From Escherichia coli (GTDB lineage Bacteria; Pseudomonadota; Gammaproteobacteria; Enterobacterales; Enterobacteriaceae), in the NCBI RefSeq assembly GCF_003018115.1, contig NZ_CP027457.1: a stretch of DNA of 64,000 nt; one strand, given 5' to 3'. A program made the position numbers and the translations under genes. The notes under the pieces are model-generated. The model saw only the letters and a list, made by a program, of their open reading frames with translations, was not told the origin of the DNA and searched no databases. Below are positions 53,721 to 58,556 of the stretch, piece by piece. Positions within the stretch are counted from its first letter, which is position 1. Every line of letters begins with the position of its first letter.

Positions 53721-54698
<978 letters not shown>

Positions 54699-54892
54699 TT
54701 ATCGTTATGATCTACAAAGGCCACCAGCATAACAAATCCGTGGTCGGTGGCAAAAAAAGCAGATTTCGCTTATTAAAACCACACATTGATTGAAGTTTGA
54801 ATAAACGCGCGATTTTTTAAAAAAGTTTGTTGACCTCAGGTCATGATTTCCCTAAATTAGCGCCCGTTCCAGCAAGACAGGAACGACAATTT

Positions 54893-54980
54893 GGTGAGGT
54901 GTCCGAGTGGCTGAAGGAGCACGCCTGGAAAGTGTGTATACGGCAACGTATCGGGGGTTCGAATCCCCCCCTCACCGCCA
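54893..54980 (+). tRNA. serX: tRNA-Ser (anticodon GGA), serX-type
   Basis: 88-nt GGTGAGGTGTCCGAGTGGCTGAAGGAGCACGCCTGGAAAGTGTGTATACGGCAACGTATCGGGGGTTCGAATCCCCCCCTCACCGCCA; long variable arm, encoded CCA; adjacent to ghrA. Confidence 0.97.
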
Positions 54981-54984
54981 GATT

Positions 54985-55021
54985 ATAAGCGCATGTTATT
55001 GTTTAACATGCGCTTTTTTAT
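54985..55021 (+). terminator. rho-independent terminator of the tRNA-Ser gene
   Basis: AAGCGCATGTT-ATTGTTT-AACATGCGCTT stem followed by TTTTTTATTTTT. Confidence 0.8.
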
Positions 55022-55129
55022 TTTTCCTTCCAGACAGTATGCCATCGGGTATGCCATCTGAAACCGGTTTATATGCCCCGCGATCATATCTTATCGGACA
55101 ATTTCCGATCTTTGAGCATACTGGCAAAG

Positions 55130-55971
55130 CTATACTGCCAGCATGTCAGGATAGTGTTTTGCGATAATATCATTCAGTCTGTCAACCAGTTCTGGTTTTC
55201 TGAACGTGATATGCGCGGAGCCCTTCTTAAAGTATCTGATGCTGAACATCTCATCTTCATAGTCCTCTTTTCCCTGAACAGATTGGATATGGTCATCCAG
55301 ATGAATGGTGATGTTTTCCCGGTTGTCGGGGATCGGTTTGCCGCTGAACAGGTGCAGCATTCTTTCCAGATCGGCAAGTCGATCGGCCTGTTGCCCGGTG
55401 ATAAGATGCCCCCCCACCGGTCCCACCTCACCAGATTGTTGACGATAATTTTACTGCCAAATTTGCAGGGTGAATTGGTTTTGTAATTCCAGCTCAGTCC
55501 CCTGAAAACGTTGATCACCCCTCGCTCAAACACTTCATCTTTGTTCTGGTGCAGTTGTTCAAACGTGCTCAGGATATTCGCTTCGCTGATTTCCGGAAAA
55601 TTATCGTACTCCAGTGACCGGTACCATGTATCACGGGCTTGTGCATCCATTAATGACAGCATCCCTGAACGTTGCATCAGGTCACGCCAGATTTCGCGGT
55701 CAAGGTTGTGGGTGATGGCTTTCATTGCGGTTTCCGGTTTCTCCATGAGCCAGCAGCCACAGCGAAAATCCTGTTTCATGGCCCAGTCCAGTGCGGTTTT
55801 ACCTCCGATGCTTTCCGCCAGCACCGAGATTTCTGCCAGTTGCCGGATAAGCGTGTCGATTTGCAGCAGTGTACTTTTTCGTACAGCCAGAATGTGGCGG
55901 ATACTGGTTGAGCAGATAACGTCCGTATGCCCGTTGACAACTTCCAGACGAGAGGCTGTGATATCAGACAT
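55130..55971 (-). pseudogene. uncharacterized island protein split by a -1 frameshift at a G7 tract (265-aa ORF 55174-55971 plus 98-aa ORF 55130-55426)
   Basis: Two overlapping same-strand ORFs switch frame at GGGGGGG (plus-strand C7, 55409-55415); an 8-G tract would give one ~330-aa protein; family not recognised. Confidence 0.6.
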
Positions 55972-55982
55972 AATCGATTATA

Positions 55983-57403
55983 TGAACGCATCCCGTTTGC
56001 AAAGGCATCCATTGTTCTGACATCGACGGTAGGTTGCAGCTTTATATCCGGCTTTATTGCAGCCCGGAAGCTGCGAGCCCCTATGTAATTCGCCGACTCA
56101 CGCCTCATTTCCTCAGCGGGCTTTAGGCCCAATCGATTATCCAGGTTTAGTGAGTCACGGTCTTACCTGTCTTTGTCATCACGCTGGCTGCCAGAGCAAC
56201 CTTTCTGCATTCACCCTTTTGTAAAGAGTTTATGTTTATCGGTATCAGCGATTAATCAGGCCTGATACTGACATGATTTTTGTCGTATTTACGTCCGTGA
56301 GCGGCTATTGCCCACACCGTTCGCGCCAGCTTGTTTGCCATTGCGACGATTGCCACGCTGGCCGGACGACGCTTTTTCAGTTCGGTTATCCATGGACCAG
56401 GTTCTTTGGTCAGTAATGCTGCCGCCCTTGCACCATGAATAAACAGGGTTCGCAGATATTTATCACCACGTTTGCTTATTCCCAGCAGGCGGATTTTTCC
56501 TCCTGAGCCTGTCTGTCTGGGCACCAGACCGATAAACGCGGCGAATTCCCGTCCCGACTTAAAGGCGGAGGCGTCTCCCATCGTGGCAACGGCAGCGGTG
56601 GCGATTAACGGCCCCACGCCTGGGATGTTCAGTAACCGCTGACAGGTTTCATTCTGTCTGGCTACCGCCTGCAACTGCTTCTCAATGTGGTCAAGATGTT
56701 CATCAAGTTCAGTAATTCGCTGATATTGTTCATCCAGCATGTTTATCAGGTAGAGCGGTAGCCGCTCCTTCAGACGCTCCAGGGCTTCCGGCACCTCCTT
56801 CGCCAAAGCAGCACGCCCCTTGTGCGTCGTTTCACCAAATTCCAGCAAGAGACCGTGAAGCGCGTTTATTTGTGCTGTCCTGAACTTCACCAGTTGCTGG
56901 CGCATTCGGTGTAACCCCAGCGTAGCCTGTTGCTCCTCGCTTTTAACGGCGACGGATTTTACCGGCTGCTGAACCGCCAGCCAGATGGCTCGGGCGTCCA
57001 TCACATCGTTTTTATTTCCCATCACGAATGCTTTGACGAACCGGCCTTTGAGTAATCTGACCTTATGTCCCAGTTTCTGAAGCTCACGCGCCCAGTGATG
57101 AGAACCCCCACAGGCCTCCATGCCGATAAGGCAGGGTTCACGGTTGCTGAAATATTCAAGGAATTTCTCACGCTTAACCTGCTTATCGATAATCTCTCCG
57201 GTATGTTCATCAACGAAATGCACCTGCATAAGATGTTTTGCAATATCAACCCCGACAGGGATATATTTCATGGTGTGGATCCTCCAGTCTGTTGGGAGCG
57301 AAACGCATCCCGTTGGGCACGATGATGCCGGAAATCTGCGGGGATCCACACTCATCTACTTAATCCCCGAGCGGCTCATTTCATAATGTTGGGATGCGTT
57401 CAT
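55983..57403 (-). mobile_element. IS110/IS1111-family insertion sequence (~1.42 kb)
   Basis: DEDD-type IS110-family transposase ORF bounded by a perfect 13-bp inverted repeat ATGAACGCATCCC (55983-55995) / GGGATGCGTTCAT (57391-57403); exact termini uncertain. Confidence 0.75.
56252..57271 (-). CDS. IS110-family transposase/recombinase
   Basis: ORF 56252-57355; start at MKYIPVGVDIAKHLMQVHFVDEHTGEI... typical IS110-family N-terminus, C-terminal LGISKRGDKYLRTLFIHGARAA region. Confidence 0.88.
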   Translation of the reverse strand: MKYIPVGVDIAKHLMQVHFVDEHTGEIIDKQVKREKFLEYFSNREPCLIGMEACGGSHHWARELQKLGHKVRLLKGRFVKAFVMGNKNDVMDARAIWLAVQQPVKSVAVKSEEQQATLGLHRMRQQLVKFRTAQINALHGLLLEFGETTHKGRAALAKEVPEALERLKERLPLYLINMLDEQYQRITELDEHLDHIEKQLQAVARQNETCQRLLNIPGVGPLIATAAVATMGDASAFKSGREFAAFIGLVPRQTGSGGKIRLLGISKRGDKYLRTLFIHGARAAALLTKEPGPWITELKKRRPASVAIVAMANKLARTVWAIAAHGRKYDKNHVSIRPD

Positions 57404-57484
57404 TACATTTCCTTTTTGCAGATAAATGAAAACGCCAGCCCTGTTCAGGCTGACGTCAGTGGAATAAAGTCTGGTGAGTGAGAT

Positions 57485-57682
57485 TCACCGGTTCTGGTGC
57501 AGAAGCTGCAGTTGGCGCAGGGTACGGATATCCTCCCCGGCCTGTTCAATACAGGGCAACAGTGCTGCCGAATCCGTTTTATCTTCATCGTTGTCAAAGA
57601 TAATCCCCGATTCGCAGTCGATATTGTCCTGCAGCCACGCAATCAGAATATCCAGTGCTGTTTCCGTGGTTAATGATTTCAT
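57485..57682 (-). CDS. small conserved island protein (DUF957/YeeW-like)
   Basis: ORF 57485-57727; start placed at MKSLTTETALDILIAWLQDNIDCESGIIFDNDEDKTDSAALLP... to avoid overlap with upstream ORF; family name from memory. Confidence 0.6.
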   Translation of the reverse strand: MKSLTTETALDILIAWLQDNIDCESGIIFDNDEDKTDSAALLPCIEQAGEDIRTLRQLQLLHQNR

Positions 57683-57693
57683 GTTGTTCCTGG

Positions 57694-58182
57694 TTACCAG
57701 TCGAAAGTGGGTAAATCCGGCAGACATTCGGCGCTGGCATCCAGATGAATGAGACTGACGCCATAACGTCGGGTAAGTGTGACAACCAGACGGCGGAACG
57801 TTTTTGACAGCCCCAGGCGTTTAAGCCGCAGAACCGGGTATGACCACGCACCGGTACGTAACAGATATCCGCTACCTGTGAAATGAATCCATTCTGATTC
57901 GCCAGTGTCATTCGTCTGATGTGACAGCGAATACAACCAGGCGTTGTCCTTTGCCGTGATATGCGCGGTACTGCAGCGTATGCCGGTCAGGGCAGCAAAT
58001 GGTGGCGTGCGCTCTGCTGATGTCCGGTCAGATTCATCAACAACACGAAGGGAGTAGCCATTGTCGCAGGCCACGTTAATCAGTTCAGCGAGATTAACAC
58101 CATCGACGTCAACGACAATTCGTCCCATGTTCAGCGCCTGCACGTTAACGCTGTCTGCTTCCAGCGTCAGGGCCAGTTTCAT
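57694..58182 (-). CDS. conserved island protein downstream of CbtA (DUF5983-like)
   Basis: 162-aa ORF MKLALTLEADSVNVQALNMGRIVVDVDGVNLAELINVACDNGYSLRVVD...; start overlaps cbtA stop (ATGA). Confidence 0.65.
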   Translation of the reverse strand: MKLALTLEADSVNVQALNMGRIVVDVDGVNLAELINVACDNGYSLRVVDESDRTSAERTPPFAALTGIRCSTAHITAKDNAWLYSLSHQTNDTGESEWIHFTGSGYLLRTGAWSYPVLRLKRLGLSKTFRRLVVTLTRRYGVSLIHLDASAECLPDLPTFDW

Positions 58183-58556
58183 TGTTTCGCCCCCGGATGT
58201 TTACCCAGGGTAATGTTATTTACCGTTCTGTAATTGTCGCGGGTCATCAGGCCTGTCGCCCGGCGGGCCCGGAGGATATCGATGCTGTTTATTAACTGAG
58301 AGTGGGTACAGGTGCTGAATCCCGGCTGGTCGGTACGCACCAGTGCGTATTTTTCCACGAGAAAGTTCACCGCATCGCACAGTGAAATGCCGGCCTCAAT
58401 ATGCTGCTCAATCACACGTTCATCAGCGAACGGTGTGTCATTCAGCGTAAGGCCGTAGTGCTGGTCCAGTAGTCGGGAGAGCAGTGTCTGCCAGATGGTG
58501 ACGGGAGACGGGCTGCGCGATGCCTCCCGTACGTGTGTATCGGGTAATGTTTTCAT
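58179..58556 (-). CDS. cbtA: type IV toxin-antitoxin system toxin, CbtA/YeeV family (cytoskeleton-targeting)
   Basis: 125-aa ORF MKTLPDTHVREASRSPSPVTIWQTLLSRLLDQHYGLTLNDTPFADERVIEQHIEAGISLCDAVNFLVEKYALVRTD... near-identical to remembered YeeV/YkfI/YpjF sequences. Confidence 0.9.
   Translation of the reverse strand: MKTLPDTHVREASRSPSPVTIWQTLLSRLLDQHYGLTLNDTPFADERVIEQHIEAGISLCDAVNFLVEKYALVRTDQPGFSTCTHSQLINSIDILRARRATGLMTRDNYRTVNNITLGKHPGAKQ

What the first reader, a model, noticed from the sequence alone, without database searches (positions are those of the whole stretch)
55983..57403. IS110/IS1111-family insertion sequence with perfect 13-bp inverted repeats
A DEDD-type IS110-family recombinase ORF (MKYIPVGVDIAKH...) is flanked by ATGAACGCATCCC (55983-55995) and its exact reverse complement (57391-57403). 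A related direct copy GAAACGCATCCCGTT lies inside the 5' leader (57300-57314). Sub-terminal IRs are characteristic of the IS1111 subgroup. The element separates the DUF957-like gene from the tRNA-proximal gene and may be a recent insertion.
Basis: partly seen in the sequence, partly recalled or inferred. Interest (0 to 1): 0.55.

Follow-up and report, generated by a model that had tools for sequence, protein, structure and literature searches.

The report
RNA-guided IS1111-family insertion sequence
This is an intact 1,432-bp mobile element of the IS1111 group, a relative of ISEc11, which carries its own guide RNA and has landed between the ribosome-binding site and the start codon of a genomic-island gene; it is a well-understood kind of element, although this particular one carries no specific name in the annotation I could consult.

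Summary
The window is E. coli 2014C-4135.

Uninterrupted sites at four loci show the repeats are sub-terminal. The element is 1,432 bp (55979-57410), with 7-bp and 3-bp terminal extensions and no target duplication, which is the IS1111-family pattern.

The transposase is 81% identical to that of ISEc11, the experimentally characterised seekRNA element, and the DNA is 78% identical. It is therefore a distinct IS, which RefSeq annotates only generically.

It encodes a homologue of the ISEc11 seekRNA/bridge RNA:
- One internal loop carries guides matching this element's target, GAGG|AA..CGATTATG, which is a Shine-Dalgarno/start-codon window.
- A second loop carries guides matching its own joined ends.
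- Stems and guides covary across seven relatives.

Near-identical copies occupy at least six sites. A 99.5%-identical strain has the site empty, so the insertion is recent.

One oddity remains: the window copy lacks 3 nt of target at its right junction. This is a new member of a known kind, of modest interest.

The parts
55979..57410 (-). Complete insertion sequence, 1,432 bp. In transposase orientation the left end is at 57410 and the right end at 55979.
   Evidence: Filled and empty sites compared at ydhF-ydhL, agaS-kbaY, the TraG_N island and the DUF4942 site. All 17 copies examined are 1,432 bp.
57404..57410 (-). 7-bp left terminal extension (AAATGTA on the transposase strand)
   Evidence: Family rule of 7 bp left and 3 bp right from PMC11187229.
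57391..57403 (-). Left sub-terminal inverted repeat ATGAACGCATCCC (transposase strand)
   Evidence: (I5)
57302..57314 (-). Internal copy of the repeat core in the 5' leader (AACGGGATGCGTT on the transposase strand). The 9-nt core ACGGGATGC is conserved in all 7 relatives. Function unknown.
   Evidence: D11, I13
57273..57351 (-). Leader hairpin (arms 57273-57282 and 57342-57351) that sequesters the transposase Shine-Dalgarno sequence GGAGGA
   Evidence: I17, 10-bp perfect; compensatory change in relatives (GGAT/ATCC versus GGAG/CTCC)
56252..57271 (-). Transposase gene, 339 aa. Motifs located: VGVDIAKH at residue 6, GMEACGG at 50, NDVMDARA at 88 and GLVPRQTGSG at 248, where DEDD-type and Ser-Gly catalytic residues are expected.
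55979..56251 (-). 273-nt 3' non-coding region that encodes the seekRNA/bridge RNA
   Evidence: Homologous to the ISEc11 non-coding region listed in PMC11187229 Supplementary Table 1.
56093..56158 (-). Target-binding domain: stem GACUCAC/GUGAGUC enclosing an internal loop with the two target guides and a central hairpin
   Evidence: RNAalifold. Helix 6 has 4 of 8 pairs with compensatory changes.
56131..56140 (-). Top-strand target guide, RNA 5'-AUAAUCGAUU-3'. It is complementary to the right half-site AATCGATTAT, which includes the AT of the DUF4942 start codon.
   Evidence: I12: 10-nt perfect complement to 55970-55979
56106..56114 (-). Bottom-strand target guide, RNA 5'-GAGGAAAUG-3'. It is identical to the left flank (G)AGG plus the first nucleotides of the IS, AAATG.
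56036..56093 (-). Donor-binding domain (second internal loop)
56083..56089 (-). Donor guide AUUACAU, complementary to left-end nucleotides 3-9 (ATGTAAT)
   Evidence: Covaries with the ends: relatives L014-L016 have AUCUCAU and a left end ATGAGAT
56041..56047 (-). Donor guide AUAUAAA, identical to the right end ATATA plus the first two left-end nucleotides AA (the circle junction)
   Evidence: Covaries with the ends: AUAUAGA in L013 and AUACAGA in L014-L016 match their own junctions
55997..56002 (-). TTGCAA, a candidate -35 hexamer. It would combine with TAAAAT, 16 nt away across the joined ends, only in the circular form.
   Evidence: sequence only. A junction promoter was shown experimentally for ISEc11 in PMC11187229.
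55982..55994 (-). Right sub-terminal inverted repeat GGGATGCGTTCAT (transposase strand)
   Evidence: I5
55979..55981 (-). 3-bp right terminal extension (ATA on the transposase strand)
57411..57421 (-). Left half of the target: CTGCAAAAAGG on the transposase strand, holding the Shine-Dalgarno sequence of the DUF4942 gene
55969..55978 (-). Right half of the target: ATCGATTATG on the transposase strand, ending in the DUF4942 start codon (55969-55971). It is 3 nt shorter than in the empty site.

Best explanation
The region is an intact, recently active IS1111-family insertion sequence of 1,432 bp (55979-57410, transposase on the minus strand), belonging to the ISEc11 clade.

Its DEDD transposase works with an RNA encoded in the 273-nt region downstream of the gene, called seekRNA or bridge RNA. 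That RNA folds into two internal-loop domains.

The first loop carries two guides that read the target. AUAAUCGAUU pairs with the top strand of the right half-site. GAGGAAAUG pairs with the bottom strand of the left half-site. Together they specify 5'-(G/A)AGG^AA(0-3 nt)CGATTATG-3'. This is the interval between a Shine-Dalgarno sequence and an ATG, here that of the DUF4942 gene at the serX-proximal end of a CbtA/CbeA-type island.

The second loop carries two guides, AUUACAU and AUAUAAA, that read the element's own abutted ends in a circular intermediate.

Recombination joins circle and target at an AA dinucleotide with no duplication. The insertion separates the downstream gene from its ribosome-binding site.

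Shown here: the element's boundaries, its domain content, its site and orientation specificity, the RNA fold with compensatory changes, and guide-flank and guide-end covariation.

Inferred from ISEc11 and IS621 experiments: that the RNA is made, that it binds the transposase, that a circle with a junction promoter forms, and the strand-exchange chemistry.
For: Identity:
- Pfam and NCBIfam matches.
- 81% amino-acid identity to TnpEc11 over 338 residues.
- 77.7% and 78.9% nucleotide identity to ISEc11 and ISEc66.

Boundaries:
- The ydhF-ydhL empty site is CATAATCGCTT|CCTCTTATCAG; the filled site adds 1,432 bp.
- Joined flanks of the agaS-kbaY and TraG_N-island copies match uninterrupted sites at 100% identity.
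- The 7-bp and 3-bp extensions, the absence of a duplication and the downstream non-coding region match the family description.

RNA:
- The RNAalifold consensus has 66 pairs, 97.6% of cells paired, and 11 pairs with compensatory changes. Slid controls give 0-2 such pairs, and 0 of 500 shuffles reach the observed value.
- The single-sequence fold has z = -3.1.

Guides:
- The longest exact match of each element's top-strand guide to its own right junction averages 7.4 nt, against 3.7 nt to other elements' junctions.
- Donor guides give 7 nt to their own ends and 3-5 nt to ends of other types.
- The window's guide is a perfect 10-nt complement of its flank (I12).
- The top-strand guide precedes the bottom-strand guide, which is the IS1111-type order.

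Activity:
- The exact protein is seen on 978 contigs.
- Copies sit at at least six different sites, always in the same orientation just upstream of a gene, including four sites in one strain.
- An isogenic empty site exists.

Experimental precedent: for ISEc11 the non-coding region is essential, the RNA co-purifies with the transposase, and guides are reprogrammable.
Against: - There is no expression data for this RNA, and no internal sigma-70-like promoter on the transposase strand.
- Rfam 15 has no matching family.
- Only seven relatives were used for covariation, and some of the changes are shared by descent (L014-L016).
- The commonest natural target (DUF4942) does not match the top-strand guide contiguously. 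There are 2-3 extra nucleotides between the half-sites.
- One relative (L015) matches its flanks poorly.
- One apparent base pair (alignment columns 173/220) probably reflects guide-to-DNA covariation rather than an RNA pair.
- I could not query ISfinder, so whether the element already has a name is unknown.
Confidence: 0.88

Rival explanations
1. The element is an inactive relic, and its presence in many genomes reflects vertical descent or homologous recombination between islands rather than transposition.
For: Most copies (64 genomes) are at the same DUF4942 site. Many of these genomes are clonal ATCC 25922-like strains. The DUF4942 islands are multi-copy and could exchange by recombination.
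Against: The ORF, both ends and all guides are intact. Copies at least 99.6% identical sit at ydhF, agaS-kbaY, a TraG_N island and two further loci. One genome has four copies at four sites. Three of these loci have exact uninterrupted counterparts in other strains.
Confidence: 0.04
2. Target choice is made by the protein, for example by recognising ribosome-binding-site or AT-rich contexts. The conserved 3' region would then be a DNA-level signal (transposase binding sites, terminator) rather than a guide RNA.
For: Several relatives also sit in SD-ATG windows. The sub-terminal repeats are probably protein-bound. No transcript evidence was obtained here.
Against: Transposases that are about 80% identical have unrelated targets, and each target matches its own variable loop segments. 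The stems around those segments keep pairing through compensatory changes, which a DNA-binding-site model does not predict. For ISEc11, supplying the region in trans from a T7 promoter restored circle formation and transposition, and reprogrammed guides redirected insertion.
Confidence: 0.04
3. The element is simply a copy (isoform) of ISEc11 or ISEc66, not a distinct IS.
For: It has the same length class (1,432 versus 1,443 and 1,440 bp), identical 7-bp and 3-bp extensions, a nearly identical repeat, and the same RNA scaffold.
Against: It shares 77.7-78.9% nucleotide and 81% amino-acid identity with them. From my own knowledge, the customary ISfinder thresholds for one IS are about 90% nucleotide or 95% amino-acid identity. 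Both target guides and the natural targets differ. PGAP names ISEc11 and ISEc66 copies specifically but calls this one only 'IS110 family transposase'.
Confidence: 0.03
4. The 3-nt deficit at the right junction of the window copy is a sequencing or assembly artefact.
For: The junction is AT-rich and of low complexity (CATATAATCG).
Against: The same -3 junction occurs in at least 9 complete genomes with several flank and IS haplotypes. A -1 form occurs in 8 more, and also at ydhF.
Confidence: 0.02

Closest known systems
ISEc11 (IS1111 family; Siddiquee et al. 2024, PMC11187229)
   Same: 339-aa transposase, 81% identical. The same 13-bp sub-terminal repeat, the same 7-bp (AAATGTA) and 3-bp (ATA) extensions and no duplication. 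A 273-nt 3' non-coding region with the same two-domain RNA scaffold. The donor guides are identical (AUUACAU, AUAUAAA).
   Different: Both target guides differ: UAAUCGAUU and AGGAAAUG here, CAGUAUUUU and GUGAAAAUA in ISEc11. So do the targets: an SD-ATG window of DUF4942, ydhF or kbaY here, GTGAAAATACTG inside IS66 tnpB for ISEc11. DNA identity is 77.7%. The 5' leader is 11 nt shorter and has an extended internal repeat copy.
ISEc66 (named by PGAP; L012)
   Same: 78.9% DNA identity. The bottom-strand guide is almost the same (AGGAAAUG). It is also inserted between an SD (AGG|AGG) and an ATTATG start.
   Different: The top-strand guide is UAAUUCUUU. The repeat has one substitution (ATGAACACATCCC), matched in the other arm and in the segment of the non-coding region that pairs with it.
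ISXne4 versus ISEc11, the natural reprogramming example in PMC11187229
   Same: The same phenomenon: a conserved RNA stem and scaffold with the two loop segments replaced, and a target that follows them.
   Different: A different element and target. Here the relation is shown across seven relatives rather than one pair.
IS621 bridge RNA (IS110 group; Durrant et al. 2024, PMC11208160)
   Same: Two internal loops, each with one guide for the bottom strand of the left half-site and one for the top strand of the right half-site. Guides overlap at a dinucleotide where exchange occurs. Bulged targets are tolerated and occasional donor-like insertion sites occur.
   Different: The RNA lies downstream, not upstream, of the gene. 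The guide order is reversed. The sub-terminal repeats are long. The overlap dinucleotide is AA, not CT. The transposase C-terminal domain belongs to the IS1111 type.

Membership tests
IS1111 family (sub-group of ISfinder 'IS110') | DEDD (RuvC-like) N-terminal domain plus PF02371 C-terminal domain; transposase of 330-350 aa | tested here: met
   PF01548 E 1.3e-13, PF02371 E 1.2e-22, 339 aa; NF033542 at 341 bits
IS1111 family (sub-group of ISfinder 'IS110') | Sub-terminal inverted repeats of 11-13 bp, perfect or nearly so | tested here: met
   13-bp perfect repeat at 55982-55994 / 57391-57403
IS1111 family (sub-group of ISfinder 'IS110') | Asymmetric terminal extensions beyond the repeats: 7 bp left, 3 bp right | tested here: met
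   Empty and filled sites compared at four loci; rule stated
IS1111 family (sub-group of ISfinder 'IS110') | No target-site duplication | tested here: met
   Net insertion is exactly 1,432 bp, with only a 2-nt (AA) positional ambiguity
IS1111 family (sub-group of ISfinder 'IS110') | The longer non-coding region lies downstream of tnp | tested here: met
   3' region 273 nt, 5' region 139 nt
IS1111 family (sub-group of ISfinder 'IS110') | GL-P----S(T)G motif in the C-terminal domain | tested here: met
   GLVPRQTGSG at residues 248-257
IS1111 family (sub-group of ISfinder 'IS110') | Site- and orientation-specific insertion | tested here: met
   All copies examined are in the same orientation at GG|A..(C/T)(G/A)(n)ATTATG-type sites, or at the one donor-like site
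IS1111 family (sub-group of ISfinder 'IS110') | seekRNA from the non-coding region, with the top-strand match 5' of the bottom-strand match and the two matches overlapping in the target | tested here: met
   Guides at positions 112-121 and 138-146 of the non-coding region. They overlap on AA. They covary with the flanks in 7 relatives. Sequence-level evidence only.
IS1111 family (sub-group of ISfinder 'IS110') | Circular intermediate with abutted ends that creates a promoter | not testable with these tools
   Joining the ends in silico gives TTGCAA-16 nt-TAAAAT. A circle was not observed.
IS1111 family (sub-group of ISfinder 'IS110') | The RNA is transcribed and bound by the transposase | not testable with these tools
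   Shown for ISEc11, ISKpn4, ISPa11 and ISPst6 in PMC11187229; inferred here by homology
ISEc11 (as the same IS) | At least about 90% nucleotide or 95% amino-acid identity (ISfinder convention, from my own knowledge) | tested here: not met
   77.7% nucleotide, 81% amino-acid
IS110 group proper (IS621-like) | Bridge RNA in a long left end upstream of the gene; only 2-3-bp sub-terminal repeats | tested here: not met
   The RNA is downstream and the repeats are 13 bp

The most novel reading that the evidence does not exclude
This element, with its relatives ISEc66 and L016, may be tuned to translation-initiation windows. One guide reads a Shine-Dalgarno-like (G/A)AGG and the other reads ..ATTATG, so insertion uncouples a gene from its ribosome-binding site without touching the coding sequence.

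Because the two half-sites are read separately, natural targets with 1-3 extra nucleotides between them are used. The -1 and -3 right-junction variants, including the window copy, could then be by-products of recombination on such bulged targets rather than later slippage.
Probability: 0.15. Interest if true: 0.45.

Novelty: new member of a known kind. Interest (0 to 1): 0.3.

Why it matters
The mechanism is already established for ISEc11 and IS621, so this finding does not open a new question. It has three practical uses.

1. It gives exact ends, the guide RNA and the target rule for an E. coli element that RefSeq labels only 'IS110 family transposase', although the protein is seen on about a thousand contigs.
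2. It supplies a natural series of related elements with the same scaffold but different guides and targets. It also supplies natural insertions into bulged targets and into a donor-like site. These are in-genome counterparts of off-target classes seen in IS621 engineering experiments.
3. For annotation, the DUF4942 gene next to it is cut off from its ribosome-binding site and is a frameshifted pseudogene in this strain.

Tried and rejected
- **Rfam search of 54500-58500 at E <= 1.** It found only the tRNA-Ser and two sub-threshold chance hits. No curated family covers this RNA.
- **First boundary estimate.** I initially read the boundaries from one empty site in a divergent strain (L001) and obtained an inconsistent 2-bp 'TT core' model. 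The 100%-identical ydhF empty site corrected this to the 7/3-bp, no-duplication model.
- **Search for an empty site matching the window's flanks exactly (120 nt joined).** None exists among 5,426 genomes. The best candidates are 3 nt and 2 nt longer. The idea that the window copy is a precise insertion into a shorter allele is therefore unsupported.
- **Test of whether the -3 junction marks one IS lineage.** It does not. It occurs with four different IS haplotypes, and L004 (-3) and L005 (-1) share one haplotype. This favours repeated small changes over a single inherited event.
- **The leader copy of the repeat as a pairing partner of the terminal repeat.** Its 9-nt core is conserved but does not follow the repeat substitutions in ISEc66 and L016, so a required pairing is not supported.
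- **Supplements of PMC11187229, searched for this transposase or its target.** Neither is present.
- **Literature search for a name.** None was found.
- **Promoter scan.** There is no sigma-70-like site on the transposase strand inside the element.

Full report
**Observation**

The window matches E. coli 2014C-4135 (NZ_CP027310.1) at 100% identity.

A 339-aa ORF starting MKYIPVGVDIAKH lies at 56252-57271 on the minus strand. It matches Pfam DEDD_Tnp_IS110 and Transposase_20, and NCBIfam 'IS110 family RNA-guided transposase' at 341 bits against a cut-off of 140.

The right arm is at 57391-57403 (I5). These are the only exact occurrences in the window.

The internal direct copy AACGCATCCCGTT at 57302-57314 is also real (D11).

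**Boundaries**

Near-identical copies (at least 99.6%) occur in 68 E. coli records. One lies between ydhF and ydhL. A strain with a 100%-identical left flank has that site uninterrupted. It reads GAACCATAATCGCTT|CCTCTTATCAG, and the filled site adds TAT + repeat ... repeat + TACATTT.

The element is therefore 1,432 bp, at window 55979-57410. Read on the transposase strand, it has a 7-bp left extension (AAATGTA), a 3-bp right extension (ATA) and no target duplication. Only a 2-nt (AA) ambiguity remains in where the crossover lies.

Two further checks confirm the ends. Joined flanks of the agaS-kbaY copy and of a TraG_N-island copy, cut at these same ends, match uninterrupted sites at 100% identity.

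Siddiquee et al. give these features as the signature of the IS1111 family: 11-13-bp sub-terminal repeats, 7 bp and 3 bp extensions, no duplication, and a long non-coding region downstream of the gene (PMC11187229).

**Relationship to known elements**

The closest named elements are ISEc66 (78.9% DNA identity) and ISEc11 (77.7%). The transposase is 81% identical to TnpEc11.

This is below the identity customarily used to call two copies the same IS. PGAP gives ISEc11 and ISEc66 copies specific names but calls this one only 'IS110 family transposase'. The exact protein is seen on 978 contigs. I could not query ISfinder, so an existing name cannot be excluded.

**The guide RNA**

I oriented seven relatives on the transposase strand (the window element, ISEc11, ISEc66 and four unnamed ones) and aligned their 3' non-coding regions.

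The alignment shows a conserved scaffold interrupted by four short variable segments. RNAalifold folds the scaffold into a long outer helix enclosing two internal-loop domains.
- 97.6% of cells pair.
- 11 of 66 pairs show compensatory changes, against 0-2 when partners are slid by 1-3 columns.
- No shuffle out of 500 reaches the observed covariation.
- The window sequence alone folds with z = -3.1.

In the first domain (56093-56158), the stem GACUCAC/GUGAGUC has four compensatory pairs. It encloses two guides, AUAAUCGAUU (56131-56140) and GAGGAAAUG (56106-56114).
- The first guide is a perfect 10-nt complement of the right flank, including part of the DUF4942 start codon. The repeat finder had flagged this pair independently (I12).
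- The second guide equals the left flank (G)AGG followed by the first bases of the element.

In the second domain (56036-56093), there are again two guides.
- AUUACAU (56083-56089) is complementary to left-end bases 3-9.
- AUAUAAA (56041-56047) equals the last five bases of the right end plus the first two of the left end. That is the junction expected in a circular form.

All four segments follow their DNA partners across relatives:
- L014-L016, whose left end is GAATGAG and right end ACA, carry AUCUCAU and AUACAGA.
- L013 carries AUAUAGA.
- Each element's target guides match its own flanks, with a mean longest run of 7.4 nt against 3.7 nt for other elements' flanks.

The order is top-strand guide first, bottom-strand guide second. 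This is the order reported for IS1111-type seekRNAs and the reverse of IS110-type ones.

The ISEc11 non-coding region in the paper's Supplementary Table 1 matches my ISEc11 locus apart from one or two bases. The homology is therefore to the experimentally studied RNA.

**Target and consequences**

The independent sites of this element, read on the transposase strand, are:

| Site | Left flank | Right flank |
|---|---|---|
| DUF4942 | AAAAAGG | AATATCGATTATG |
| ydhF | TAAGAGG | AAGCGATTATG |
| agaS-kbaY | TAAGAGG | ATCGCATTATG |
| L026 | ACAGAGG | AATTGATTATG |
| L024 | AAAGAGG | AATATTATG |

In the sites with an annotated or called downstream gene (DUF4942, ydhF, kbaY and L026), the element sits between a Shine-Dalgarno-like sequence and an ATG, in the orientation of that gene. 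The downstream gene therefore loses its ribosome-binding site.

In the window the DUF4942 gene is additionally frameshifted. It is intact in E. coli 1303, whose serX-adjacent island is 99.5% identical and whose site is empty.

About 4,900 of 5,426 genomes carry at least one DUF4942/DUF957 junction of this type. Only 64 have the element there.

**Mechanism, shown and inferred**

Shown here:
- the element's anatomy;
- precise, orientation-specific insertion;
- the conserved RNA fold;
- guide-target and guide-end covariation.

Inferred from experiments on ISEc11 (non-coding region essential in cis or in trans, RNA co-purifies with the transposase, guides reprogrammable, circle with junction promoter) and on IS621 (left guide pairs with the bottom strand, right guide with the top strand):
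- the RNA is expressed;
- it binds the transposase;
- it bridges the circle junction and the target for strand exchange at the shared AA.

Joining the ends in silico gives TTGCAA, 16 nt, then TAAAAT across the junction. No sigma-70-like promoter is found inside the element on that strand. This fits expression from the circle or from read-through transcription.

A leader hairpin that sequesters the transposase Shine-Dalgarno sequence is conserved, with one compensatory change.

**Unexplained detail**

Relative to the isogenic empty site, CATAATCGATATT|CCTTTTT, the window copy lacks 3 nt (ATT) next to its right end.

Among 64 genomes with the element at this site:

| Right junction | Genomes |
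|---|---|
| Precise | 43 |
| -1 nt | 8 |
| -3 nt (as in the window) | at least 9 |
| Not listed by the search | 4 |

No empty site with the shorter allele was found. A -1 junction also occurs at ydhF.

The -3 junction occurs with four IS haplotypes, and L004 (-3) and L005 (-1) share one haplotype. I therefore favour repeated small losses in the AT-rich junction (CATATAAATATCG to CATATAATATCG to CATATAATCG).

A by-product of recombination on a target whose half-sites are 2-3 nt too far apart is not excluded. The agaS-kbaY site shows that the GG|ATCG geometry is used precisely.

**Verdict**

The finding is correct, and the element is an ordinary, well-understood kind. It is an ISEc11-clade IS1111-family element with its own pair of target guides, annotated only generically in the records I could consult. 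I rate it a new member of a known kind, of modest interest.

Noticed in passing
window 55969-55981, compared with L017 1250-1270: The window copy lacks 3 nt of target (ATT on the plus strand) next to the IS right end, relative to the 99.5%-identical empty site in E. coli 1303. Across 64 genomes the junction is precise in 43, -1 in 8 and -3 in at least 9. No empty -3 allele exists in the collection.
   Followed up: partly
L021 and L028 (TraG_N / DNA-methylase island), junctions around locus positions 1060 and 2490: The same IS is inserted precisely into CACATATA|AAATGTAATGAAATATC. This is an 18-nt mimic of its own circle junction. It matches both donor-loop guides 7/7 and not the target guides. 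The empty site is present at 99% identity or more in 194 genomes. It looks like a natural counterpart of the donor-like off-targets reported for IS621.
   Followed up: partly
L022-L025 (CP054363.1): One E. coli genome carries four copies with identical IS haplotypes at four different loci: agaS-kbaY, DUF4942, an integrase-adjacent site and ydhF. This suggests a recent burst of transposition.
   Followed up: no
L012 (ISEc66) and L016, flanks of the IS: These relatives also sit between a Shine-Dalgarno sequence and an ATG (cacAGG|AGGTATTATG and acGGA|GGGCTTATG). The top-strand guides of four clade members start with AUAA, the complement of TTAT(G).
   Followed up: partly
window 57302-57314, and relatives: The leader copy of the repeat has a 9-nt core, ACGGGATGC, conserved in all seven relatives. 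The core does not follow the repeat substitutions in ISEc66 and L016, so it is probably not maintained by pairing with the terminal repeat. Its function is unknown.
   Followed up: partly
window 56205-56214 with 55982-55990; alignment A1 columns 48-53 / 274-279: The start of the RNA scaffold (GAAUGC) pairs with the right sub-terminal repeat (GCGUUC) in the consensus fold. ISEc66 changes both (GAAUAC / GUGUUC) together with its left repeat, a three-way covariation seen in one lineage only.
   Followed up: no
IS position 1296 = window 56115: There is a T/A polymorphism immediately 5' of the bottom-strand guide. In L006 and L007 it changes CUGAGG to CAGAGG. This lengthens the match to AGAGG-type left flanks such as ydhF.
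   Followed up: no
window 55130-55971: The DUF4942 gene downstream of the IS is a frameshifted pseudogene here (PGAP). It is intact in the empty-site strain E. coli 1303 and in several other strains that carry the IS.
   Followed up: partly
window 57431-57457 (minus strand): A terminator-like hairpin with 11 pairs and a T-rich tail lies just after the DUF957 gene, immediately upstream of the insertion point. The IS target therefore lies between a terminator and the next gene's ribosome-binding site.
   Followed up: no
window 54893-54977: A tRNA-Ser gene (Rfam tRNA, 53.8 bits) lies next to ghrA and marks the chromosomal end of the CbtA/CbeA-type island that carries the IS.
   Followed up: no
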